A stretch of 32,000 bases of DNA from Cylindrospermopsis raciborskii Cr2010 (GTDB lineage Bacteria; Cyanobacteriota; Cyanobacteriia; Cyanobacteriales; Nostocaceae), in the NCBI RefSeq assembly GCF_003367075.2, contig NZ_CP065936.1:2400001-2432000 (forward strand). The letters are read 5' to 3'. Each line of letters begins with the position of its first letter. The first letter of the stretch is position 1. Below are positions 1 to 19,472 of this stretch, one piece after another. The notes under the pieces were generated by a model. It made no database searches, was not told where the DNA came from, and saw only the letters and a program-made list of their open reading frames with translations. Position numbers and translations under genes: made by a program.

Positions 1-2240
1 TAGCTGTTGAACTGTGTCACTTTTCCGATGTGGATAAGGAAGGAGGAGCTAGTGATTGGGGAAAACGACCTCTGTGTGAAAAACAACTAAAGTATGCTGC
101 TATGGATACGGTTTACCTCGCTGCTGTTCATCGTCGGTTAATGGAATTATCCGATCCTGATGCTGTCAGTAGTATTTTTAATAACAATTTTGATAATACT
201 ACCCCCAATATCCTTCATGATATGGCAAACCCTGAATCAGAAAATTCTTCTTTGACTCCCACCAAACTAAGATTGGCTTTTGAGTGTCCTCGGATATTTT
301 ATCTTAATCATCGTTTTAATAATAAATCTTTGTTTATTCCGGAAGGTTTGATTGGTGGTATTGGTAATGTTTTTCATAAATTGGCAGATGAATTTATCGA
401 TTTATTGCTGAATGATGCCGAACTTACAACTCTATTTAATCCCCATCCTAACGAAATAAATTTGCAAGAGGTGGTGTTAGCGCTTCAGCAGTCATTTTAT
501 AAAATTGTCTTTTTTCCCTATTCTCAAACCCAGGAAGAGAGCAAGTCTTTGGTATTACATCAAGTTTGGCTAGGATTAACAGGATTAATTAAAAAGTTCA
601 CTGAGTTATTGATTAGCAATCGAAATTATTGCCATGCCAACTTACTTATTGCTAATACTTTTATGAGGGAGGATCGCGTTTTAGAACATGATTTTAATTT
701 ACCAAATGGTAAAAGACAACTGATAAGAGGTAAATGTGATTGTTTGGTATTTGATTTTGCAACCAACCGGTTTTCTGTGATAGAGTTTAAAACTTATCAA
801 CCAATAGATACATCAGCACAAGTGGCTCAGGTCGCCCTGTATAGCTATATATTATCTGAGAGAAAAAAAGTACCTGTTAATGTTGCTGTTTATTGCGTTC
901 TACCTGAATTCAAGGAGTATAAATATACTGCCGAAGAGTTAGAAAATAATATTCACCAAGTCATACCTCATAAATTATTACAAATGCAAAATTGGTTGAC
1001 CTGGGAACCTCCCCAACCCAATCCACCTCCTATGACATCCCAGTCTCACTTATGTCAAATTTGCCCCGAAAAACAAAAGTGTCAGACTTTTTTTGCTCCC
1101 GACTTTGACAACTATTTTAATAACTGGGAGTTTAATCATCAGGATTCCCCAAATATTGAGGGTAAGAATTCCCCCCAAACAAGTAAAACTCAGAAAAATA
1201 ATCCCTTTAATCCCGATCAAATTGGGTTAGATTTGGTGAACACTTTGAAATCCTTTGGTATTGGTGTGGAGTATCAAGGTGCTATAGTAGGTCCGGCATT
1301 TGTAAGAGTGAAATTAAAACCTAATTTGGGTGTTAAAGTGAATTCTTTATTGAAATTATCTGATGATTTACGGGTGCAATTGGGACTAGAATGCCCACCC
1401 TTAATTGCATCACAAGCTGGCTATGTAAGTGTTGATTTACCCCGCAAAGACCGAGAAATTGCCAGATTTGAAGATTATATGCAAAAGAATTTTTTATCTG
1501 CGACTGCTAAGTTAAAAATTGCCCTTGGATTGAATATTGATGGGAAGTTAGTAGAAGCTGATTTGTCTGATCCTAATACCTGTCATTTTTTAGTTGGTGG
1601 AACCACCGGAAGTGGCAAAAGTGAGTTTTTAAGATCCTTGCTCCTAAGTTTGCTCTATCGACATTCTCCTGAACACTTGAAAATTGTTTTAGTAGACCCT
1701 AAAAGAGTCACTTTTCCTGAGTTTGAAACAATTCCCTGGTTGTATTCACCAGTCGTAAAAAATAGCGATCGCGCCATAGAGTTAATGAGTGAGTTAGTAG
1801 CAGAGATGGAATCCCGATACCAAAAATTTGAGCTGGCTAAATGTGCCAACATAACAGTTTATAATCAAAACTGTGCCCAGGTTTTACCACGTATAGTTTG
1901 TATATTTGATGAATATGCGGATTTCATGATAGAGAAAGAGACCCGAACTGCTTTAGAGCAGAGTATTAAACGTTTAGGAGCAATGGCAAGAGCAGCGGGA
2001 ATACATCTAATTATTGCCACCCAGCGTCCAGAAGCTACTGTGGTTACTCCTATCATTCGTTCCAACCTTCCTGGAAGAATTGCTCTGCGCACTTCAAGTG
2101 CTGCGGACTCCCAAATTATTTTAGGGGGAAAGATATCACAAGCAGCGGACTTATTGGGTAAGGGGGATTTGGTTTATCTAGTTGGGTCTGAATTACAAAG
2201 AATCCAGAGTTTGTTCGCTGAAAAAATTCAGTTTTCTTGA
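1..2240 (+). CDS. 5'-truncated multidomain protein: end of a DEDDy 3'-5' exonuclease domain, a Cas4/RecB-like PD-(D/E)xK Fe-S nuclease, and an FtsK/SpoIIIE-type ATPase with no TM region and no gamma domain
   Basis: The frame of ORF 30..2240 stays open back to nt 3 (..AVELCHFSDV..), so the gene starts upstream of the window. aa 1-45 carry SDWGKRPL..QLKYAAMDTVYL, the ExoIII Y-x3-D motif of RNase D-like exonucleases. aa ~80-355 carry C86 (ECPRIFYL), D237 (GKCDCLVFD), E252-F-K254, Q268-x3-Y272, then C342-x2-C345-x5-C351. aa ~400-736 carry the FtsK alpha/beta motor (GPAFVRVKLKP), Walker A GGTTGSGKS (nt 1596-1622), Walker B VCIFDEYAD and IIATQRP. The protein ends right after GKGDLVYL, with no winged-helix gamma domain. 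Confidence 0.8.
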   Translation, partial: AVELCHFSDVDKEGGASDWGKRPLCEKQLKYAAMDTVYLAAVHRRLMELSDPDAVSSIFNNNFDNTTPNILHDMANPESENSSLTPTKLRLAFECPRIFYLNHRFNNKSLFIPEGLIGGIGNVFHKLADEFIDLLLNDAELTTLFNPHPNEINLQEVVLALQQSFYKIVFFPYSQTQEESKSLVLHQVWLGLTGLIKKFTELLISNRNYCHANLLIANTFMREDRVLEHDFNLPNGKRQLIRGKCDCLVFDFATNRFSVIEFKTYQPIDTSAQVAQVALYSYILSERKKVPVNVAVYCVLPEFKEYKYTAEELENNIHQVIPHKLLQMQNWLTWEPPQPNPPPMTSQSHLCQICPEKQKCQTFFAPDFDNYFNNWEFNHQDSPNIEGKNSPQTSKTQKNNPFNPDQIGLDLVNTLKSFGIGVEYQGAIVGPAFVRVKLKPNLGVKVNSLLKLSDDLRVQLGLECPPLIASQAGYVSVDLPRKDREIARFEDYMQKNFLSATAKLKIALGLNIDGKLVEADLSDPNTCHFLVGGTTGSGKSEFLRSLLLSLLYRHSPEHLKIVLVDPKRVTFPEFETIPWLYSPVVKNSDRAIELMSELVAEMESRYQKFELAKCANITVYNQNCAQVLPRIVCIFDEYADFMIEKETRTALEQSIKRLGAMARAAGIHLIIATQRPEATVVTPIIRSNLPGRIALRTSSAADSQIILGGKISQAADLLGKGDLVYLVGSELQRIQSLFAEKIQFS

Positions 2241-2280: not shown

Positions 2281-3189
2281 ATGAATACCTGGCTAAAAAA
2301 ATATCCTTTAATGACGCTGATTACCATCTCAATTTTATGTATTAACATGGAATCAGCGGTTTCCATTTCATCCCCCATGGGACTTGTTGTTCAAGCTACT
2401 CAACCAATAGCATTAGATTGGTTAAACAAGGGGTTAAAAGCTATTTCAGAGGGTAAAGTACAAGACGCAATTATAGCTTTTCGTCAAGCAGCACAATTAG
2501 ATCCAGCTCTAGCCCCCGCTCATTATAATCTAGGTTTAGCACTGCGACAAACTGGCAAATTACAACCAGCAGCAGACGCATTCTATCAAGCCACCCAAGC
2601 TGATCCCCAATTTGCATCAGCTTTTGCTAATTTAGGCGGGGCATTATTAGAAGGAAATAATTTACCATTGGCAATCGATTATTTAAAAACTGCTTTACAA
2701 TTAGACCCAAAGTTGGGTTTTGCCCACTATAATTTGGGATTAGCAAGACAACTGCAAAAAGATTGGCAACAGGCGATCGCCTCTTTTCAACAGGCAATAA
2801 TATATAGTCCAAATTCTGCAGAGCCAGTTTACCATTTGGGGAATTGTTATTTACAACAAGGGAAATTAGAATTGGCAAAATCAACATTTATTAAGGCTAT
2901 AAGTTTAAATTCTAACTATACAGAGGCTCATTATAATTTGGGTTTAATTTTGTTCGAGCAAGGACAACTACAAGATTCATTATCAGCATTTAGAAAAGCT
3001 GCTCAGACAAATTATAATTATCCCAATGCTTATTACGGAGCGGGATTAGTATTTGTACAACTTAAACAATATGAACAAGCAATAAAAGTAATAAAATATG
3101 CAAGAGATATATACCAAAAACAAGGCAATATGGCATGGGCAAATAATGCGGAGAAACTGTTGACACAAATACGAAATCTTAGAAGATAA
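2281..3189 (+). CDS. TPR-repeat protein with N-terminal signal/anchor sequence
   Basis: ORF 2182..3189. The preferred start is ATG 2281 (MNTWLKKYPLMTLITISILC..), which gives a hydrophobic N-terminus. The body is about 8 tandem 34-aa TPR units with recurring AHYNLGLA / A..F..A..LDP signatures. Confidence 0.8.
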   Translation: MNTWLKKYPLMTLITISILCINMESAVSISSPMGLVVQATQPIALDWLNKGLKAISEGKVQDAIIAFRQAAQLDPALAPAHYNLGLALRQTGKLQPAADAFYQATQADPQFASAFANLGGALLEGNNLPLAIDYLKTALQLDPKLGFAHYNLGLARQLQKDWQQAIASFQQAIIYSPNSAEPVYHLGNCYLQQGKLELAKSTFIKAISLNSNYTEAHYNLGLILFEQGQLQDSLSAFRKAAQTNYNYPNAYYGAGLVFVQLKQYEQAIKVIKYARDIYQKQGNMAWANNAEKLLTQIRNLRR

Positions 3190-10197: not shown

Positions 10198-12270
10198 ATG
10201 AAAGAGCTTCTTTACTTAGAAATTCCCACCAGCGATAGTGGTGCTGTCCGGGACTGGCTACAAACAGAGTTTGTTCCGGGAGATGGAGAAAAATTACTAA
10301 CTCCACAAGGAGTTCGCGTGGTAAATGAGGAGTTATCTATTGAAAAACATTTAGCTACGGAACTCTCGATTTTTGTTTGGTCTGTACAGCGAACAACATA
10401 CTTGAAGGTGTTTCGTTGGGGAGATAAACCATTTAGAAGAGAAGGTTTAGTTTTACAACGCTTAACTATGGGTATTCGGAGCCGCTTTCCCCACCAATAC
10501 CCCGATCCCCCAAAGATTGACCCCCAAAGGTCAATTTTTACAGAATTAGAACCCTATTATCCTCTAACTGTCAAGTATTTTCAGAAAATTCCCAATGGGG
10601 AATATGATCTTAAACGTGTTTACTGGTGGGAGCAACGTTGGCGCGAAGGTGTCAAAAGTCCTCAGCAACCCCGTCAAGTAGTTTTTGACCACCAAACAAC
10701 CTCATCAGAAAACTCATCTGGCCCAATCTATGACCTAATCTATATCGGTGGCGCTTTGGGTTCAATCCATGCTGCAGTTATGGCTAGATTGGGTTATAAG
10801 GTGCTACTGATTGAAAGATTACCTTTTGGCAGAATGAATAGGGAATGGAATATTTCTCGGGATGAAATTCAAAGTCTAATCAATCTAAACTTACTTACAA
10901 ATGAAGAAGTAGAAACTATTATTGCTAGAGAGTATAAAGATGGTTTTAATAAGTTTTTTGATGCCAATAATCCATCTGACTTGCAAGCACCTGTATTACA
11001 CACACCTACGGTTCTGAATGTGGCTCTGGATGCTGAGATATTATTAACCCTGTGTGGACAAAAACTGCGAGATGCTGGTGGTGATATTTGGGATGAAACA
11101 GAATTTGTGCGAGCAGATGTCACTAGTTCACAAGTTAGTGTAACTGTCAAGAGTATAACTACAGGAAATGAGAAACTAGTAGGGGGTAGATTACTCATAG
11201 ATGCTATGGGTACTGCTTCTCCTATAGCTTGGCAATTAAATGGTGGTAGAGCTTTTGATAGTGTGTGTCCTACAGTGGGTGCTATTATAGAGAAGGGATT
11301 CGCTCCTGGAGTGTGGGACTCCCAGTATGGGGATGTTTTGTATAGTCATGGGGATATTTCTAGGGGAAGACAGTTAATTTGGGAGTTGTTTCCAGGAAAG
11401 GGGGAAGAACTGACAATTTATCTATTTCACTATCATCAGGTAAATGGTAAAAATCCCGGTTCTCTTTTGGAAATGTATGAGGACTTTTTTGCAATTTTAC
11501 CAGAATACCGCCGTTGTGACCTGGATAACCTGGTGTGGAAAAAGGCTACTTTTGGCTATATACCCGGGCATTTTAGTACCAGTAGTAGAGATCGCAAGGT
11601 GGCTTTTAACCGAGTAATTGCCATTGGTGATTCCGCTTCTTTACAATCTCCTTTAGTATTTACTGGTTTCGGTTCTCTGGTTCGCAACCTGGACCGTTTA
11701 ACGACTCTGTTGAATACTGCTTTAAAACATAATTTACTGAGTTTCACACATCTAAATAGAATTCGTGCCTACCAAAGTAACGTTTCTGTAACTTGGTTAT
11801 TCTCTAAAGGAATGATGGTTCCCACGGGGAAATTTATTCCTCCCCAAAGGGTAAATGCTATGCTCAATACCTTCTTTGGTTTGCTGGTAGATGAACCTTT
11901 ACAGGTAGTGGACAATTTTATTAAAGACCGCTGTGACTGGTTAACCTTTAATCGTCTAGCGATAAAAGCTGCTAGCAAAAATCCTGCTTTACTGATTTGG
12001 ATTTGGCAAATGGCGGGTTTTCAGGATCTAGTTAAATGGTTGGGCAATTATTTTAATTTTGGTGTTCATGCTCTGGTAAGCGCTTTGCTGGGAACCTGGT
12101 TCTCCCCATTCCTCCAATGGAATCAGTCCTGGTTGGAACCTAATTATCCCGCACTTTGGCTACAATTATTGGAAATTAATTATGCCATTACCATTGGGAG
12201 GCGTGTTAACACTCGATTTGTCACTTCCATTTCTTCAGATTTGTCTGTAGGTAAGTTTAGGAAGAGTTAA
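10198..12270 (+). CDS. FAD-dependent oxidoreductase, CruA/CruP-like (lycopene cyclase-type flavoprotein family)
   Basis: 690 aa. A dinucleotide-binding motif YDLIYIGGALGSIHAAVMARLGYKVLLIE starts at about aa 188, after an N-terminal extension of about 180 aa. GDSASLQSP is a late FAD motif. The C-terminus is hydrophobic. The size and layout match my memory of cyanobacterial CruA/CruP. The specific subfamily is not certain. Confidence 0.5.
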   Translation: MKELLYLEIPTSDSGAVRDWLQTEFVPGDGEKLLTPQGVRVVNEELSIEKHLATELSIFVWSVQRTTYLKVFRWGDKPFRREGLVLQRLTMGIRSRFPHQYPDPPKIDPQRSIFTELEPYYPLTVKYFQKIPNGEYDLKRVYWWEQRWREGVKSPQQPRQVVFDHQTTSSENSSGPIYDLIYIGGALGSIHAAVMARLGYKVLLIERLPFGRMNREWNISRDEIQSLINLNLLTNEEVETIIAREYKDGFNKFFDANNPSDLQAPVLHTPTVLNVALDAEILLTLCGQKLRDAGGDIWDETEFVRADVTSSQVSVTVKSITTGNEKLVGGRLLIDAMGTASPIAWQLNGGRAFDSVCPTVGAIIEKGFAPGVWDSQYGDVLYSHGDISRGRQLIWELFPGKGEELTIYLFHYHQVNGKNPGSLLEMYEDFFAILPEYRRCDLDNLVWKKATFGYIPGHFSTSSRDRKVAFNRVIAIGDSASLQSPLVFTGFGSLVRNLDRLTTLLNTALKHNLLSFTHLNRIRAYQSNVSVTWLFSKGMMVPTGKFIPPQRVNAMLNTFFGLLVDEPLQVVDNFIKDRCDWLTFNRLAIKAASKNPALLIWIWQMAGFQDLVKWLGNYFNFGVHALVSALLGTWFSPFLQWNQSWLEPNYPALWLQLLEINYAITIGRRVNTRFVTSISSDLSVGKFRKS

Positions 12271-13469
12271 CGAGCGTCTTGATTTTGAGACTGAGGTGGG
12301 AAATTTGGCAGCTCTACTGCTGCTAAGGTTTTTCTCACTTTCACCGTTCGACCAGGGTAAATCAAAGGTGAAGGTGATTTCTCTTCTGAATCTTGCTCTA
12401 AAGGTTCTACAGGGGAGAAGTTATTAGACGAATTATTAATTTTATTAATTGACCATTGTAGATCGTAATTATTTTGTTGGTCACTGGTGTTCATGTTGAT
12501 GGTATTTATGGGACAATCAGATAACAAGTTCACTTTGGGTAAATTATTTATATCTTTTGAACTTTCTGAAGTCATGGTTGGTCTAGGTTCATTTTCCTCT
12601 GGATTTGAGTCTATGATATTGGTCTCCTTGGTATTATTTGTCCGATTTGTATTTGATATATCTGACACATCGGGATTAGAAGCAAAAAACACGGACAGAA
12701 TATCTTCCAATCTCTGATCTACATGGGAAGTCTCTTCGGGGACATCCATTGTGTTTTCTGTGGGTTGGTTAAATTCTGAGTCTACATAGTCCATTGCTGA
12801 CCAAGGTCTAATGGGTTCCCTGTGTGATAATAAAGACTGCACTTTTTTATAAAATCTGCTGTCCTCCGTATTTACATCTAAATAACAAGCATTATCATCT
12901 ATTTCTTGATCGCTAGAAGCAGGATTATCTAAACACTTTTCCAAAGCAGCTTTAAACTGTAGGGTTTGACGCTGTTGTCTTAAAAGTCGCATACCTAATT
13001 CACGACAGGTATTTTCTGACTGTAGTAACTGTTGAGATTGTTCACTACATTTAGTTTGTAGAAGGGTACATTCTCTTTCTAGTTGGGCGATTCTTTGTTG
13101 ATTTATTTGCGATTCTGCTTTATGGGTTTCAATAAACATCTCCTGACTTTCCATATTTTGCAAAGCAGTTTCCAATTGCTGGGAAAGGGACTGTATTCGC
13201 TCTTGAGCAGCTGTTATCTCCTGATTCTGCTGATTTAACATGGATTCGCTGACGCTAGAGCGTTTTTTTTGCCACTGTAGAATTTTTTCCGCTTCCCCTA
13301 ATTCCTTGTTTAACTTCTCCAATTTTCTACATAAATCATTGTTAACATTTTTTAGTTCTTGATTTAAGGTTACTAACTGTTGTATTTCTGAATCTACCAT
13401 GACTTGTTTCTCTCTGTATAATTGTAAAATAATAGAAAGGTTATGGGAGCCATACCGGGTTAAATCCAT
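12267..13469 (-). CDS. coiled-coil protein with long Asn/Ser/Asp/Glu/Pro-rich disordered C-terminal half
   Basis: 400-aa ORF. aa ~25-180 are heptad-like and Q/E/L-rich (QQLVTLNQELKNVNNDL..ERECTLLQTKCSEQSQQLL). The remainder is low complexity. Start ATG 13469 overlaps the upstream gene by 29 nt. The alternative start ATG 13400 (MVDSEIQQ..) sits right at the coiled-coil onset. Confidence 0.65.
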   Translation of the reverse strand: MDLTRYGSHNLSIILQLYREKQVMVDSEIQQLVTLNQELKNVNNDLCRKLEKLNKELGEAEKILQWQKKRSSVSESMLNQQNQEITAAQERIQSLSQQLETALQNMESQEMFIETHKAESQINQQRIAQLERECTLLQTKCSEQSQQLLQSENTCRELGMRLLRQQRQTLQFKAALEKCLDNPASSDQEIDDNACYLDVNTEDSRFYKKVQSLLSHREPIRPWSAMDYVDSEFNQPTENTMDVPEETSHVDQRLEDILSVFFASNPDVSDISNTNRTNNTKETNIIDSNPEENEPRPTMTSESSKDINNLPKVNLLSDCPINTINMNTSDQQNNYDLQWSINKINNSSNNFSPVEPLEQDSEEKSPSPLIYPGRTVKVRKTLAAVELPNFPPQSQNQDAR

Positions 13470-14952
13470 CCATAGGAAGTGTTTCCGGTTTAATCAGAGA
13501 CTTGCCTTGATCTTCAGCAATCGGTACTAGGGGCATAAACCATAGACTACTTTTGGCGATCGCCTCTCCATCATTGGTTTTCAAGATACTAGGTGGTAAG
13601 GAAAGGGAGTTATTACTTACAGGTACAATTTGGTCAAACAAAACTGCTAAACCATCGGGAGCTAGGCTCATTTGTACATTTCTTTGTCCTAATGGTAACA
13701 TTAAAATTGGTTTATACTTTTTTGTATCCAGATTGATCGCCACCAGGTAAGGTTGTTCCACATATTTGTCTTGTGATACTAAACTAGTTAATAAGCAGTA
13801 GAGAGTGGGTGAGGAAGGATCAAAACTGCAGTAAAGTATGGATCCTGAGGTTTTTAGTAATGGTTTCTGAACTCCTTGATTGGTAACCAAGAATAAATCT
13901 CTAGTATAATCGCTATTAAATTTTACCATAGCAGCTTGGGAACCATCTTTAGAAAAGGCTTGTACCAAACCAAACTGAGGTAAAAAGTCCAATGGTTTAC
14001 TTGTATCTCCTGCTAGGGATAAAATCGCAGTTCCTTGTCCTTGGGCAACTGCTACTGCTTTGCTATCCGGTGTAATGATAAAGTCACCTGCTGGTTTACC
14101 TTCTAAGCGTTTTAGTGTTACTTTTCCATTGGAATCTAGGTTATCCAGGGATGAATACCATAGTCCAAAATCTCCAGGATTATCTTTTTTACCTCTTTGA
14201 ACCACAATAGTTTCCCCGTCAGGGGACAAGTCAAACTTGAGGTTTTGATACTCTTGACTGTCCAACATTAAACCCAGTTTACCTGCTGGTTCTGATTTTT
14301 GTTCTTGTCCATTAACTATTCCTGTAGTCACTGTATAAATTTTCGCCGACAGTAAATCTGGATTATTACTTGCACGAGCGGAAAACAGGATTTTATCCCC
14401 TATAGGAAATGGCTCAAAGTCCATAACAATTAAATCCCTGGGGGTAAGTATGGTTTTCTGCTCTTGGGTTAAGTTATAAAGAACCAACCTACCATATTCC
14501 TGGGGACTTGCACCAATATAGACTAACGCACGATTGCGAGTAGAGAAACTACCCGTAAAAGATTTGATTAGTCTATTGCTATTCTGACTGCGGGAAAATT
14601 TGTCCTTGGCTTTATTTAACGAAACTTGATAATTTGTGCCATAGGGAGCTGGTGTTAATAGTGTGTAGACCATCCTTTTCCCCGCCCAGCTGATTTTACC
14701 AGCTAGTGGTGGGGTAATTTGCAAATTATCCTCCACACTTTTAGCATCCATGGGACGACTAAAGACCAGACTAAATGCAGTATCTTCAGCACCAATCTGT
14801 CGATCTTGCCAACTAAAACTGCGCACAGTGGGTTTTACACCATCCCCCTGAGCAATAGTTATTCCAATCAACAAACCTAACACTAATATCAGGGCGATCG
14901 CCGCACGATCTAGTTGTGAAACAGACAAAATAGATTTATAGGTTTTAGTCAT
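13441..14952 (-). CDS. N-terminally anchored periplasmic protein with Ig-like domain and TolB-like beta-propeller region
   Basis: ORF 13441..14988. The preferred start is ATG 14952 (MTKTYKSILSVSQLDRAAIALILVLGLLIGI = TM/signal anchor). Next comes FSLVFSRPMD..SVEDNLQITPPLAG..W, an SbsA-type Ig-like pattern. After that are repeated LSPDG/ITPDS/FSKDG/LAPDG blades typical of TolB/WD40-like propellers. Confidence 0.6.
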   Translation of the reverse strand: MTKTYKSILSVSQLDRAAIALILVLGLLIGITIAQGDGVKPTVRSFSWQDRQIGAEDTAFSLVFSRPMDAKSVEDNLQITPPLAGKISWAGKRMVYTLLTPAPYGTNYQVSLNKAKDKFSRSQNSNRLIKSFTGSFSTRNRALVYIGASPQEYGRLVLYNLTQEQKTILTPRDLIVMDFEPFPIGDKILFSARASNNPDLLSAKIYTVTTGIVNGQEQKSEPAGKLGLMLDSQEYQNLKFDLSPDGETIVVQRGKKDNPGDFGLWYSSLDNLDSNGKVTLKRLEGKPAGDFIITPDSKAVAVAQGQGTAILSLAGDTSKPLDFLPQFGLVQAFSKDGSQAAMVKFNSDYTRDLFLVTNQGVQKPLLKTSGSILYCSFDPSSPTLYCLLTSLVSQDKYVEQPYLVAINLDTKKYKPILMLPLGQRNVQMSLAPDGLAVLFDQIVPVSNNSLSLPPSILKTNDGEAIAKSSLWFMPLVPIAEDQGKSLIKPETLPMDGFNPVWLP

Positions 14953-15041
14953 CGGTAGAAATGGAAAATAATTCCTGTACAAATGCAAACAAATCTAAAC
15001 AAGTCTCGGGTTAATTAACATATTTTAGTCACCTAATACAC

Positions 15042-15818
15042 CTAATAACTGTAAGGATTTTTGGGCTGGGGAATTTTGCGGATAGAATTAGCCTTAATAG
15101 TGAGTCGGCGTTTACCAGCAATATTGGCCGTGATCATTTGTCCTTCCACTTCTAACCAGGTATCTGGGGGATATTGGTCGCGATTAGTGGGGAGTTGGAC
15201 AGGTAATCCAGCGGGATAAACGTCCGCAGCACAACAAGTAATCACAAACCTAGCTAAGATAAGATGGTCCAGATTGAGTTCCTGGGAGTGAATCACAAAC
15301 CCTTGAACTTTGACCTTCTGTCCAGTATAAGCGTCCGGTTCTGGATAGACATTGAGTATTCTTACCCAATCTATTAGAGTTCGCTCTTCTGGACGGGTAT
15401 TAGCGCGAAAGGACTGGGGTTGAGTCCGTGTTGCTCCTAGTATTTCCGTAACTTCTCGATTCAGTGCTGTTTGGGAAGCAAAGACTTGAGGACTAATAAT
15501 AAATCCTAAAACCGCAGCAACTAATAGCAAGCTGCTACTCCACCCAGGGGGAAACACATTAATATGTTGTTCACCACTGGTGATTTGATCGGGAGGAATT
15601 TTGTGCCAAAGTTGCAAACTTTTACAAAAACTCATGGTCAGTAAACCAATAGCAGCTACAATAACTAACCAAAAGAAATCAGGGTGAATTAAGAGATTCA
15701 GTTTATTGGTTAGCCAGTACTTCAAGATTAGCACTCCCCAAGCAGCAATGGCTACTACCTCTAACCAAGGGAGTAAATGATTAGGCGTTTGGGATTTAGC
15801 ATTTCGTAGTGAAGTCAT
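15042..15818 (-). CDS. TIGR03943/DUF1980-family membrane protein (partner of COG0701 permease)
   Basis: 258 aa. It has two or three N-terminal TM helices. The C-terminal domain carries the FVITCCAADV double-Cys segment. It sits 24 nt downstream of a COG0701 permease, which is the conserved pairing. Confidence 0.65.
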   Translation of the reverse strand: MTSLRNAKSQTPNHLLPWLEVVAIAAWGVLILKYWLTNKLNLLIHPDFFWLVIVAAIGLLTMSFCKSLQLWHKIPPDQITSGEQHINVFPPGWSSSLLLVAAVLGFIISPQVFASQTALNREVTEILGATRTQPQSFRANTRPEERTLIDWVRILNVYPEPDAYTGQKVKVQGFVIHSQELNLDHLILARFVITCCAADVYPAGLPVQLPTNRDQYPPDTWLEVEGQMITANIAGKRRLTIKANSIRKIPQPKNPYSY

Positions 15819-15842
15819 ACACGTAAAATCACAGCATTTAAG

Positions 15843-16889
15843 CTACATGATGTGGAGATTTAAAAACAAGGTAAATAAAAGTGTCAATTGACCTGCTAAG
15901 GCAAATAAATAAAACAGAGCTTTTGGTTTGAAAACAGATAACATTAATCCCACACCCTTAATGTCAATCATTGGACCGAAGACAAGAAAGGCTAATAAAG
16001 ATCCACTAGTAAAAGTTGAAGCGAAGGAGAGGGCAAAAAAGGAGTCAACCGTGGAACAAATTGATACCACTGTAGCTAGTAACAACATGGTAAGAATTGA
16101 ACTAATTGGCCCCGCACCCAAACTGAGAATCACATCTCGGGGGGCTAATACTTGAATAGCTGCTGCTATGGCACTACCTAGTACCATTATGGCTCCTAAT
16201 TCTCGGAGTTCCTGGATAGCATTATCTAAAACCAGGCCCAGTTTCCCAATTAAAGTTCTGTTGGGTGTTTTTACAACTGTTTGAGAAAAATTTCCACTTA
16301 ACCTGGTGGATATACCTGCTTTACCACCGAGGATATAGGTTCCCGATTGCAAAAGGGGACTGGGGGTTGTAACCTGTTCTTGTAATTGTGGGGTTTTTGG
16401 TTCTGTCTGTGCTGGGGGGTTAAATTTCAAATAGCGGGCAATCTGGGGTTGCAGGTAAGGAGTAATATCCTTTTGAAAGCTGAACACAAAGCCAATAATA
16501 GTAGCAATTGATAAGGATAAAACCACTCTTAAAACTACTATTTCCGGTTGATCCCTAAATGCAGTCCACGTTGCCCAAATCACAATTGGGTTGATAGTTG
16601 GTGCTGCTAGCAAAAAACCAATAGCAACCGACGTGGGCACTCCTTGCATTAGTAATCGTCTAGCTACTGGTACGTTACCACACTCGCAAACTGGAAATAA
16701 AAAGCCAATCATGCTGCCAAACAAAGCTCCCAGGAAGGGATTTTTAGGCATTATATCTACAAGTTTGCGCTCTTCAACGAAAAACAACAACAAGCTAGAA
16801 AATAAAACACCTAAAAGCAAAAAAGGCATTGCCTCGACCAGCAGACTTAGAAATAGAGTAAAACCATTATTTAATTGACTTATCATCAT
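15843..16889 (-). CDS. COG0701/DUF318 family permease (ArsP-like)
   Basis: 348 aa and polytopic. It has the characteristic FPVCECGNVPVARRL motif and a second half related to the first, repeating the membrane topology. Confidence 0.75.
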   Translation of the reverse strand: MMISQLNNGFTLFLSLLVEAMPFLLLGVLFSSLLLFFVEERKLVDIMPKNPFLGALFGSMIGFLFPVCECGNVPVARRLLMQGVPTSVAIGFLLAAPTINPIVIWATWTAFRDQPEIVVLRVVLSLSIATIIGFVFSFQKDITPYLQPQIARYLKFNPPAQTEPKTPQLQEQVTTPSPLLQSGTYILGGKAGISTRLSGNFSQTVVKTPNRTLIGKLGLVLDNAIQELRELGAIMVLGSAIAAAIQVLAPRDVILSLGAGPISSILTMLLLATVVSICSTVDSFFALSFASTFTSGSLLAFLVFGPMIDIKGVGLMLSVFKPKALFYLFALAGQLTLLFTLFLNLHIM

Positions 16890-19399: not shown

Positions 19400-19472
19400 T
19401 GGAGTTAAGCGGAATCGAACCGCTGACCTCTTCAATGCCATTGAAGCGCTCTACCAATTGAGCTATAACCCC
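19400..19472 (-). tRNA. tRNA-Ala (anticodon GGC)
   Basis: The reverse complement folds as a cloverleaf. The acceptor stem is GGGGTTA/TAACTCC and contains the G3:U70 alanine identity pair. The D-arm is GCTCAATTGGTAGAGC. The anticodon stem is CTTCA/TGAAG with loop AT-GGC-AT. The T-arm is AGCGG-TTCGATT-CCGCT and the discriminator base is A. The gene is 73 nt and CCA is not encoded. Confidence 0.9.

What the first reader, a model, noticed from the sequence alone, without database searches (positions are those of the whole stretch)
1..2240. Single polypeptide fusing a DEDDy exonuclease, a Cas4-like Fe-S nuclease and a stripped-down FtsK motor
Seen in the sequence:
- One uninterrupted frame, open to the window edge, carries three modules in order.
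- Module 1 is the ExoIII Y-x3-D end of an RNase D-like 3'-5' exonuclease.
- Module 2 is a PD-(D/E)xK nuclease with D237, E252-x-K254 and Q-x3-Y. It also has one N-terminal Cys (C86) plus C342-X2-C345-X5-C351.
- Module 3 is a complete FtsK/SpoIIIE alpha-beta ATPase with Walker A/B and IIATQRP.

Established knowledge:
- The 1+3 cysteine pattern with CX2CX5C is the Fe-S signature of Cas4/AddB-type nucleases.
- Division or segregation FtsK proteins carry N-terminal TM helices and a C-terminal KOPS-reading gamma domain. Both are absent here.

Inference:
- A hexameric dsDNA pump is covalently tied to two nucleases of opposite polarity.
- This is conceptually like HerA-NurA, or like the ATPase+nuclease modules of anti-phage systems.
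- It could be a DNA-end resection, foreign-DNA destruction or DNA-uptake processing machine rather than a cell-division protein.
- I do not recognise this three-domain architecture as a described family.
Basis: partly seen in the sequence, partly recalled or inferred. Interest (0 to 1): 0.8.

Follow-up and report, generated by a model that had tools for sequence, protein, structure and literature searches.

The report
Nuclease-armed FtsK DNA pump, orphaned
This cyanobacterial gene really does fuse two DNA-cutting domains to an FtsK-type DNA pump, but it belongs to a class of predicted anti-plasmid/anti-phage "DNA capture" systems described by comparative genomics in 2024, and here it has lost its two usual partner genes.

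Summary
Frame 3 is open from the window edge to the stop at 2238-2240. The full protein (P0001, 873 aa) has four modules:
- a complete DEDDy 3'-5' exonuclease;
- a Cas4/AddB-like PD-(D/E)xK nuclease with the C...CX2CX5C cysteines;
- an FtsK alpha domain;
- an FtsK motor, with no membrane anchor and no gamma domain.

Every catalytic residue is invariant in 82 Nostocales orthologues.

The architecture is not undescribed. It fits the "Orc/CDC6-coupled HerA/FtsK capture systems" of PMC10853773 (NAR 2024). That paper explicitly mentions an FtsK-alpha-bearing motor, an active restriction-fold nuclease and an optional fused 3'-5' exonuclease. These systems are predicted to destroy invading DNA and have never been tested.

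In 78 of 78 informative relatives the gene ends a three-gene operon: a ~280-aa probable wHTH protein, a ~700-aa Orc/Cdc6-like AAA+ ATPase, then the fusion. The same cassette sits on a Pseudanabaena conjugative plasmid and in a non-cyanobacterial MAG.

The window's lineage is the exception. The gene stands alone (recR upstream, TPR gene downstream) among housekeeping genes, yet remains under purifying selection (dN/dS 0.17).

Verdict: a new member of a known, computationally predicted kind. The database name "cell division protein FtsK" is misleading. Interest is moderate.

The parts
1..2240 (+). 3' 2.2 kb of the exo-nuclease-FtsK fusion gene. Codons read from nt 3, the stop is at 2238-2240, and the first 128 codons lie upstream of the window.
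   Evidence: The gene on L001 (5141-7762) differs from the window by 2 nt in the overlap.
3..158 (+). C-terminal end of the DEDDy 3'-5' exonuclease domain. The ExoIII motif YAAMD is at 93-107.
   Evidence: Pfam DNA_pol_A_exo1. Full-length P0001 matches rnd TIGR01388 at 3e-16 and NrnC/Rrp6/RNase D chains in the PDB. D26, E28, D91, Y159 and D163 are invariant in 82 orthologues.
231..1103 (+). Cas4/AddB-like PD-(D/E)xK nuclease domain.
   Evidence: Pfam PDDEXK_1 at 3e-11. The AF2 model has pLDDT 87.5. Foldseek PDB top hits are the Cas4-family ACE1, AdnA (AdnAB complex), AddB, Dna2, RecE and Cas4.
285..287 (+). First Fe-S cysteine (CPR motif).
   Evidence: C-P-R is invariant in alignment A6 across distant members.
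738..842 (+). Nuclease catalytic core: D (738-740), E-x-K (783-791) and Q-x3-Y (828-842).
   Evidence: D374, E389, K391, Q404 and Y408 (P0001 numbering) are invariant in 82 Nostocales sequences.
1053..1082 (+). CX2CX5C cysteine triad (CQICPEKQKC).
   Evidence: It is invariant in all family members aligned.
1107..1202 (+). N/Q/P-rich disordered linker between the nuclease and the FtsK alpha domain.
   Evidence: AF2 pLDDT is below 50 for model residues 294-325. Its length varies between orthologues.
1185..1442 (+). FtsK alpha domain.
   Evidence: Pfam PF17854 at 9e-9.
1473..2237 (+). FtsK/SpoIIIE beta (RecA-like) motor. Walker A is at 1596-1622, the Walker B DE within 1899-1916, and IIATQRP at 2010-2030. 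The protein ends about 30 residues after the motor, so there is no gamma domain.
   Evidence: Pfam PF01580 at 4e-45. The closest solved chains are P. aeruginosa and E. coli FtsK, at 172 and 151 bits.
2281..3189 (+). Downstream TPR-repeat protein (302 aa). It is a neighbour only and is not conserved next to the fusion gene in other genomes.

Best explanation
Proposal: the gene encodes the effector subunit of an Orc/CDC6-coupled HerA/FtsK 'capture' system.

Shown:
- One polypeptide carries a DEDDy 3'-5' exonuclease, a Cas4/AddB-type PD-(D/E)xK nuclease with four Fe-S-type cysteines, and an FtsK alpha/beta dsDNA-translocase module.
- It lacks the membrane anchor and the KOPS-reading gamma domain.
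- All active sites are conserved.
- In almost all relatives the gene is co-operonic with an Orc/Cdc6-like AAA+ ATPase and a ~280-aa probable multi-wHTH protein.

Inferred mechanism:
- The motor forms a hexameric ring on duplex DNA.
- The wHTH and Orc/Cdc6-like partners choose or license the target.
- ATP-driven pumping reels the DNA through the ring.
- The tethered Cas4-like nuclease nicks or degrades 5' or single-stranded ends while the DEDDy domain trims 3' ends.
- The captured molecule (plasmid, conjugating or phage DNA) is thereby destroyed processively.

In this window's lineage the gene has been separated from its partners. The upstream gene is recR and the surrounding region is housekeeping. 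The gene is still kept intact by selection. It therefore either works with partners encoded elsewhere or retains a partner-independent activity.
For: Domains and motifs:
-.
- Structural test of the nuclease domain: pLDDT 87.5, with top PDB matches in the Cas4 family, AdnAB, AddB and Dna2.

Operon:
- In 78 of 78 GTDB loci with upstream sequence the order is small protein, then ATPase, then fusion. Gaps are mostly under 40 bp or the genes overlap.

The ATPase partner:
- Pfam AAA_16, and BrxC_BrxD above its gathering score.
- Its AF2 model matches archaeal and eukaryotic Cdc6/Orc1 (2qby_B, 1fnn_A, 7jgr_G; probability 1.0).
- An extra alpha/beta domain and a C-terminal winged helix follow the AAA+ core.

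The cassette also occurs elsewhere:
- On a Pseudanabaena conjugative plasmid next to IS21 and a SWIM/DEAD helicase pair.
- In a MAG with planctomycete-type neighbour genes.

Literature:
- PMC10853773 section 22 describes exactly this combination, including the FtsK-alpha-bearing motor and the optional fused 3'-5' exonuclease. It predicts interception of invader DNA.
- PMC12839542 repeats the theme.

Other:
- The motor hits PADLOC defence models SspH (220 bits) and mad8.
- The orphan copy is under purifying selection. dN/dS is 0.165 against the 90%-identical orphan P0002, and 0.12-0.18 in each catalytic domain.
Against: - No experiment exists for any member.
- Within Nostocales the gene tree follows the species tree and the operon appears fixed. 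That is atypical of mobile defence islands.
- The window region is housekeeping (purL, purF, lpxB).
- Neither partner matches PADLOC models convincingly.
- The partners are absent from the window and from the 5 kb upstream recovered on L001.
- I could not confirm from the paper's figure or supplement that its examples include this cyanobacterial protein or a Cas4-type REase.
Confidence: 0.55

Rival explanations
1. Domesticated housekeeping role. In polyploid, filamentous cyanobacteria the system clears or processes the cell's own DNA. Examples would be chromosome copies or plasmids trapped by the closing septum, or control of genome copy number. It would stand in for the missing canonical FtsK.
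For: - Inheritance is vertical and the operon was present in all 78 Nostocales-type loci examined.
- A ParA/MinD-like ATPase lies immediately downstream in 57 of 81 loci.
- The motor is closest to bona fide cellular FtsK.
- The review PMC7766704 lists only HerA/YjgR-type proteins and the plasmid-borne All7666 as cyanobacterial 'FtsK'.
- All7666 is a different paralogue on a conjugative plasmid.
- The window context is housekeeping.
Against: - There is no membrane or divisome-targeting domain, and no gamma domain for directional loading.
- Two active nucleases on a segregation motor would be hazardous to the chromosome.
- The same cassette sits on a conjugative plasmid and in an unrelated phylum.
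- The ParA gene is absent from those cassettes and from 24 of the 81 loci.
Confidence: 0.2
2. A double-strand-break end-resection or recombination-repair enzyme, analogous to AddAB/AdnAB, in which an FtsK motor replaces the SF1 helicases.
For: - The nuclease domain is structurally closest to AdnA, AddB, Dna2 and Cas4-family nucleases.
- In this strain the divergently transcribed upstream gene is recR.
Against: - The recR adjacency is unique to this lineage. Only 1 of 80 other loci has recR within the fetched flanks, and not adjacent.
- FtsK motors translocate on duplex DNA without unwinding it, so they would not by themselves produce a 3' tail. This rests on established knowledge of FtsK.
- The conserved partners are an Orc/Cdc6-like ATPase and a wHTH protein, not recombination proteins.
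Confidence: 0.1
3. A function serving a mobile element itself, such as processing or transfer of plasmid or ICE DNA, later fixed in Nostocales chromosomes.
For: - The cassette is on the conjugative plasmid pPSE7367.01.
- FtsK/TraB-type motors drive dsDNA conjugation in actinomycetes (NCBIfam TraB hit).
- Cylindrospermopsis phages encode a motor 41% identical.
Against: - No relaxase, integrase or replication gene is consistently linked in the 81 loci.
- A transfer motor with active exo- and endonuclease domains would degrade its own cargo.
- No close relative of P0001 was found on viral contigs.
- No phage record in GenBank carries the nuclease-FtsK fusion; phage matches cover the motor only.
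Confidence: 0.08
4. It is the ordinary cell-division and chromosome-dimer-resolution FtsK, as the database annotations say.
For: - Sources name it 'DNA translocase FtsK' or 'cell division protein FtsK'.
- The motor domain is FtsK-like.
Against: - There is no 4TM anchor, no long linker and no gamma (KOPS/XerD-activating) domain.
- The NCBIfam FtsK equivalog scores 157 bits against a cut-off of 1566.
- Two nuclease domains replace the N-terminal half.
Confidence: 0.03

Closest known systems
Orc/CDC6-coupled HerA/FtsK 'capture' systems (Aravind laboratory, NAR 2024, PMC10853773; restated in PMC12839542)
   Same: - FtsK motor with an FtsK-alpha domain.
- An active restriction-endonuclease-fold nuclease.
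- An optional 3'-5' exonuclease fused to the FtsK component.
- Operon partners that are an Orc/Cdc6-like AAA+ ATPase with a C-terminal wHTH and a separate wHTH-rich protein.
- Occurrence on mobile DNA in some taxa.
   Different: - Here the gene is orphaned from both partners.
- In Nostocales the system looks vertically inherited rather than mobile.
- The nuclease is of the Cas4/AddB Fe-S type, which that paper does not name.
- The inactive REase insert in the ATPase could not be verified.
- The class itself has never been tested experimentally.
DndFGH / SspFGH restriction modules (DndH/SspH)
   Same: - A nuclease and an FtsK/HerA-type motor in one polypeptide, working with an NTPase subunit and a multi-wHTH subunit.
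- The motor scores 220 bits against the C-terminus of the PADLOC SspH model.
   Different: - DndH/SspH are ~1600-1800 aa with inactive helicase, TRD and methylase-like domains that are absent here.
- The partners do not match the DndF/G or SspF/G models.
- There is no phosphorothioate modification module nearby.
Cellular FtsK/SpoIIIE
   Same: - Alpha and beta motor domains.
- Walker A/B motifs and the IIATQRP motif.
- The closest solved structures are 2IUU and 2IUS.
   Different: - No 4TM anchor and no gamma domain.
- The N-terminal half is two nucleases.
Cas4 / AddB / AdnAB / Dna2 Fe-S nucleases, including the cyanobacterial Argonaute-associated Cas4-family ACE1 (9iac, 9iab)
   Same: - PD-(D/E)xK core with Q-x3-Y.
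- One N-terminal cysteine plus a C-terminal CX2CX5C.
- These are the top structural matches.
   Different: - It scores below the Cas4 equivalog cut-off (31 bits against 65).
- An extra helical insert lowers the TM-score to about 0.48.
- No cas genes or SF1 helicase are present; the domain is fused to an FtsK motor.
HerA-NurA
   Same: Concept only: a hexameric FtsK/HerA-superfamily DNA pump coupled to a nuclease.
   Different: - The motor belongs to the FtsK clade (DUF87/HerA scores 21.6 bits, below its cut-off).
- The nucleases are DEDDy and PD-(D/E)xK, not NurA.
- They are fused to the motor rather than being a separate subunit.

Membership tests
Orc/CDC6-coupled HerA/FtsK capture system (PMC10853773) | HerA/FtsK-class ATPase, in one subset preceded by an FtsK-alpha domain | tested here: met
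   Pfam FtsK_alpha at 9e-9 and FtsK_SpoIIIE at 4e-45. Walker A/B, Q802 and R803 are invariant.
Orc/CDC6-coupled HerA/FtsK capture system (PMC10853773) | Active REase-fold endonuclease | tested here: met
   PDDEXK_1 at 3e-11. D, ExK and QxxxY are invariant in 82 sequences. Foldseek places the domain with Cas4, AddB, AdnA and Dna2. Whether this is one of the paper's two REase families was not verifiable.
Orc/CDC6-coupled HerA/FtsK capture system (PMC10853773) | 3'-5' exonuclease fused to the FtsK component (optional feature) | tested here: met
   P0001 residues 1-180: DNA_pol_A_exo1, and rnd at 3e-16. The DEDDy residues are invariant.
Orc/CDC6-coupled HerA/FtsK capture system (PMC10853773) | Orc/CDC6-family AAA+ ATPase encoded in the same neighbourhood | tested here: not met
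   It is absent from the window and from L001-L003 by tblastn, and absent next to the 90%-identical P0002. It is present immediately upstream in 78 of 78 other loci, with Cdc6/Orc1 fold matches. The family as a whole therefore meets the feature, but this locus does not.
Orc/CDC6-coupled HerA/FtsK capture system (PMC10853773) | Inactive REase domain inserted between the AAA+ core and the C-terminal wHTH of the ATPase | tested here: inconclusive
Orc/CDC6-coupled HerA/FtsK capture system (PMC10853773) | [quoted passage not shown] | tested here: inconclusive
   A ~280-aa protein is encoded upstream in 74 loci. It gives only weak wHTH hits, with E-values of 0.007-0.15, and a weak internal repeat (hhalign P = 0.003). 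It is absent at this locus.
Orc/CDC6-coupled HerA/FtsK capture system (PMC10853773) | Mobile or patchy distribution, and an anti-invader function | not testable with these tools
   The picture is mixed. The cassette is on a conjugative plasmid and in another phylum, but it is vertical and apparently fixed in Nostocales. The function is untested anywhere.
Cell-division FtsK/SpoIIIE | N-terminal 4-TM membrane anchor | tested here: not met
   There is no PF13491 hit. The maximum 19-residue hydropathy is 1.07. Canonical FtsKs carry PF13491.
Cell-division FtsK/SpoIIIE | C-terminal gamma (KOPS/XerD) winged-helix domain | tested here: not met
   There is no PF09397 hit. The protein ends about 30 residues after the motor.
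Cell-division FtsK/SpoIIIE | Score at or above the NCBIfam FtsK equivalog cut-off | tested here: not met
   157 bits against a cut-off of 1566.
CRISPR-associated Cas4 | PD-(D/E)xK core plus 1+3 cysteines (CX2CX5C) | tested here: met
CRISPR-associated Cas4 | Equivalog score, and linkage to cas1/cas2 | tested here: not met
   TIGR00372 scores 31 bits against a cut-off of 65. No cas genes appear among the neighbours examined.
AddAB/AdnAB/RecBCD helicase-nucleases | SF1 helicase motor coupled to the nuclease | tested here: not met
   The only NTPase domain is FtsK-type.
HerA-NurA | HerA-clade ATPase plus a NurA nuclease | tested here: not met
   DUF87/HerA scores 21.6 bits, below its 23.2 cut-off, and the HerA equivalog has E = 0.1. 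No NurA domain is present.
DndFGH/SspFGH | DndH/SspH multidomain core, with DndF/G or SspF/G partners | tested here: not met
   Only the C-terminal ~330 positions of the SspH model match. The partners give no DndF/G or SspF/G hits even at E <= 10.

The most novel reading that the evidence does not exclude
In heterocyst-forming and related filamentous cyanobacteria, a formerly mobile FtsK 'capture' defence cassette may have been domesticated into a core, vertically inherited function. One possibility is disposal of DNA caught at the septum, or policing of genome and plasmid copies in polyploid cells, with the linked ParA-like ATPase taking part. The orphan copy in this lineage would then show that the nuclease-pump works without its Orc/Cdc6 and wHTH partners.
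Probability: 0.15. Interest if true: 0.7.

Novelty: new member of a known kind. Interest (0 to 1): 0.42.

Why it matters
- Genome annotation and cyanobacterial cell-division reviews list this family as 'FtsK'. That is misleading, because the protein lacks the features that define the division protein and carries two active-looking nucleases.
- It is a clean, widely conserved example of a predicted but untested immune or DNA-disposal strategy: a ring translocase that reels DNA into tethered nucleases.
- Nostocales offer genetically tractable hosts, such as Anabaena PCC 7120 and its relatives, in which to test it.
- The orphaned but still selected copy in this window is a natural experiment on whether the effector can act without its sensor partners.

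Tried and rejected
- **Iyer et al. 2004 (FtsK-HerA superfamily):** I tried it by DOI and by PMC id, but it is not held. My recollection that it already noted nuclease-fused cyanobacterial FtsKs could not be checked.
- **recR linkage:** rejected. Only 1 of 80 other loci has recR within the flanks, and not adjacent.
- **Metagenome scan with an alignment of distant PD-(D/E)xK-FtsK proteins:** wasted. The tool chose the generic motor motif G[IF]HL..ATQ and returned ordinary FtsKs.
- **Viral-contig scans:**
  - The nuclease-domain alignment had no searchable block.
  - P0001 itself found nothing.
  - GenBank phages match the motor only.
- **All7666 as the orthologue:** rejected. It is the 'putative FtsK' used in Anabaena two-hybrid studies, but only its motor matches (37%) and it lies on the conjugative plasmid pCC7120beta.
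- **PADLOC scans of the two partner proteins:** no defence-system model at E <= 0.01 for the Dolichospermum pair. Other orthologues of the ATPase gave only weak hits to BrxD, SngB, PtuA and mad8.
- **hhalign of the ATPase middle domain against the PD-(D/E)xK alignment:** no signal.
- **Taxonomy of the 50%-identity representatives:** the cluster look-up gave almost no names; one representative is from Myxococcota.
- **Supplement of PMC10853773:** it holds no searchable list of accessions.
Full report
**1. Observation**

The + strand frame starting at nt 3 is open from the window edge to TAA at 2238-2240, giving 745 codons. The other two frames are full of stops.

Pfam finds four domains in order:
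- the last ~45 residues of a DNA_pol_A_exo1 3'-5' exonuclease;
- PDDEXK_1 (E 3e-11);
- FtsK_alpha (9e-9);
- FtsK_SpoIIIE (4e-45).

NCBIfam adds sub-threshold matches to RNase D and Cas4, and a partial match to FtsK at 157 bits against a cut-off of 1566.

All of them check out at the nucleotide level.

**2. The missing N-terminus**

A protein search returned P0001 (873 aa). It is encoded on three Logan contigs and differs from the window by 2 nt in the overlap. It supplies ExoI (DTE) and ExoII (HNADFD) in the same frame. The exonuclease is therefore part of the same polypeptide and is complete. Full-length P0001 matches rnd at 3e-16 and matches NrnC, diDNase, Rrp6 and RNase D chains in the PDB.

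The upstream gene is a divergently transcribed recR. Downstream is a TPR protein.

**3. Quality of the domain calls**

*Nuclease domain.* An AlphaFold2 model of this domain (window nt 228-1202, 35-sequence alignment) has mean pLDDT 87.5 and pTM 0.82. Its best PDB matches by Foldseek are as follows:
- the cyanobacterial Argonaute-associated Cas4-family enzyme ACE1 (9iac, 9iab);
- AdnA (AdnAB complex), AddB, Dna2, RecE, Cas4, Exo5 and MGME1.

Probability is 1.0 and the TM-score is about 0.48. This is the Cas4/AddB group, most of whose members carry an Fe-S cluster, so the 'Cas4-like' call holds at fold level.

*Motor.* The motor is closest to authentic P. aeruginosa and E. coli FtsK (172 and 151 bits).

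*Missing FtsK features.* Canonical FtsKs seen carry the 4TM (PF13491) and gamma (PF09397) domains. No hit to either is found here, and hydropathy never approaches a TM helix.

*Conservation.* In an alignment of 82 Nostocales orthologues the following are all invariant:
- the DEDDy residues;
- D374, E389-x-K391 and Q404-x3-Y408;
- C479, C482 and C488;
- Walker A (K667, S668), Walker B (D764, E765), Q802 and R803.

The N-terminal C-P-R cysteine is invariant even among distant members.

**4. Distribution and context**

*Presence.* A scan of one genome per GTDB species found 305 relatives. The best 80 are Nostocales plus a few other filamentous cyanobacteria such as Microseira. All of them match the query end to end.

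*Operon.* I clustered all ORFs in these loci. In every one of the 78 loci with upstream sequence, the fusion gene is preceded on the same strand by a ~700-aa P-loop protein. The gap is usually under 40 bp, or the genes overlap. In 74 loci a ~280-aa protein comes before that. A ParA/MinD-like ATPase follows in 57 loci.

*Cassette outside Nostocales.* The three-gene cassette recurs with an exonuclease-less PD-(D/E)xK-FtsK protein in two other places:
- on the conjugative plasmid pPSE7367.01 of Pseudanabaena, next to IS21 and a SWIM/DEAD helicase pair;
- in a MAG whose neighbouring genes carry planctomycete-type domains.

*Family size.* A full-library HMMER search with the nuclease part found only 119 clusters at 50% identity. 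They include:
- many 650-720-aa PD-(D/E)xK-FtsK proteins without the exonuclease, one of them from Myxococcota;
- stand-alone ~300-aa nucleases.

**5. The partners**

*The ~700-aa protein.*
- It hits AAA_16, and in one orthologue BrxC_BrxD above its gathering score.
- Its AF2 model has pLDDT 76 and shows an AAA+ module at 40-380, a disordered linker, an alpha/beta domain at 418-600 and a C-terminal winged helix at 631-697.
- Foldseek matches archaeal and eukaryotic Cdc6/Orc1 with probability 1.0.

*The ~280-aa protein.*
- It gives only weak wHTH hits.
- It shows a weak internal repeat.
- By eye it looks like three wHTH units. This is inference only.

**6. What is known**

PMC10853773 (NAR 2024) describes 'HerA/FtsK capture systems'. 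In these, an Orc/CDC6 AAA+ ATPase carrying an inactive REase before its C-terminal wHTH is combined with:
- an active REase;
- a HerA/FtsK ATPase;
- wHTH domains.

The paper adds three details that fit this family:
[quoted passage not shown] '

The authors predict that the motor intercepts invader DNA and feeds it to the nuclease. PMC12839542 restates this. I found no experimental work.

The family in this window fits that description point by point. Two things remain unverified: the inactive REase insert, and whether the paper's examples include this cyanobacterial lineage or a Cas4-type nuclease.

Cyanobacterial cell-division literature does not list this protein. The 'putative FtsK' used there is All7666, a distinct paralogue on a conjugative plasmid.

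**7. What is unusual here**

The window's lineage is the only one among those examined in which the gene stands alone.
- No partner is detectable in the 32-kb window or on L001-L003.
- The 90%-identical Sphaerospermopsis MAG copy (P0002) is likewise alone, behind an ArsR-type HTH gene.
- In the sister Cylindrospermopsis clade the operon is split by an inserted AAA_15/21 ATPase gene and a DUF3368 gene.
- These two clades sit on a longer branch of a tree that is otherwise species-like.
- The orphan is nevertheless under purifying selection. dN/dS is 0.165 overall and 0.12-0.18 in each catalytic domain.
- The rest of the window is ordinary chromosome: an ABC transporter, purL, purF, lpxB and a cytochrome c assembly gene.

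**8. Interpretation**

The best-supported reading is that this is the effector subunit of a capture-type system.
- *Shown:* the domain content, the conservation, the operon and the Orc/Cdc6-like partner.
- *Inferred:* hexamer formation, processive reeling of duplex DNA, the division of labour between the 5'/ssDNA-acting Cas4-like nuclease and the 3'-5' exonuclease, target choice by the partners, and the anti-invader purpose.

Fixed, vertical inheritance in Nostocales and the frequent ParA neighbour keep a domesticated housekeeping role alive as the main rival. End-resection repair and a role serving a mobile element are less likely. The annotated 'cell division FtsK' identity fails its defining features.

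**9. Verdict**

- Novelty: a new member of a computationally described, experimentally untested kind, with an unusual orphan context.
- Interest is moderate.

Noticed in passing
L086 3564-5391 (Cylindrospermopsis raciborskii CENA303); the same arrangement is on L087: Two extra genes are inserted between the Orc/Cdc6-like ATPase and the fusion gene, splitting the operon. One encodes a 444-aa SMC_N/AAA_15/AAA_21 ATPase with a UPF0175 hit. The other encodes a 166-aa DUF3368 protein. They look like a toxin-antitoxin or abortive-infection-type pair.
   Followed up: no
L004 10907-11791 and the equivalent position in 57 of 81 loci: A 294-aa ParA/MinD-family ATPase lies immediately downstream of the fusion gene in most Nostocales (AAA_31 at 3e-37; ParA_partition at 4e-21). 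It is absent from the Pseudanabaena plasmid cassette and the planctomycete-like cassette. Whether it is a functional partner is unknown.
   Followed up: partly
phage records OQ625504.1 44950-45939 and MH636380.1 44017-45006: Two Cylindrospermopsis phages encode an FtsK motor 40.8% identical to this protein's motor. That is slightly closer than the plasmid and bacterial FtsKs (33-39%). It may bear on the idea that capture systems mimic invader motors.
   Followed up: no
L173 3251-5428 (Nostoc PCC 7120 plasmid pCC7120beta, All7666 = WP_010993994.1): The protein treated as 'putative FtsK' in Anabaena two-hybrid and divisome papers is encoded on a plasmid typed as conjugative. It shares only the motor with the chromosomal nuclease-FtsK family, and the review table omits that family.
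   Followed up: partly
P0133 and P0146 (distant full-length homologues): In the family alignment some distant exo-nuclease-FtsK representatives have substitutions at the PD-(D/E)xK catalytic positions (D to N or P, K to Q) while keeping the three C-terminal cysteines. These may be nuclease-dead variants, or the result of alignment error.
   Followed up: no
P0138 (1049 aa) and P0144 (1121 aa): Two representatives carry 200-300 extra residues between the exonuclease and the PD-(D/E)xK domain. P0123 and P0147 have a ~200-aa N-terminal region that does not match the exonuclease. The N-terminal module of the family therefore appears to be exchangeable.
   Followed up: no
P0148 (2519 aa, 38 matched stretches) and P0178 (749 aa, 11 stretches): Two proteins match query residues ~199-240 of the window fragment many times over. 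The segment searches detect no nuclease or FtsK domain in them. This is probably a repeat or low-complexity artefact, and it remains unexplained.
   Followed up: no
window 12267-13469 (-) and 13441-14988 (-): Two adjacent, slightly overlapping ORFs of 400 and 515 aa have no Pfam hit at E <= 1e-5. They sit upstream of a DUF1980/ArsP-type permease pair at 15042-16889 (-).
   Followed up: no
window 10198-12270 (+): A 690-aa ORF has only a sub-threshold FAD_oxidored match (22.5 bits against a cut-off of 27). I checked it because its length resembles the missing ATPase partner, but it is unrelated.
   Followed up: yes
window 19400-19472 (-): This is the single tRNA gene and the only Rfam match in the window. 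It lies between a 130-aa ORF and purL.
   Followed up: no
L084 1298-5435 (Pseudanabaena plasmid): A SWIM zinc-finger protein and a 1060-aa DEAD/DEAH helicase are encoded divergently just upstream of the plasmid copy of the cassette, next to an IS21 element. This may be another conflict-system pair.
   Followed up: no
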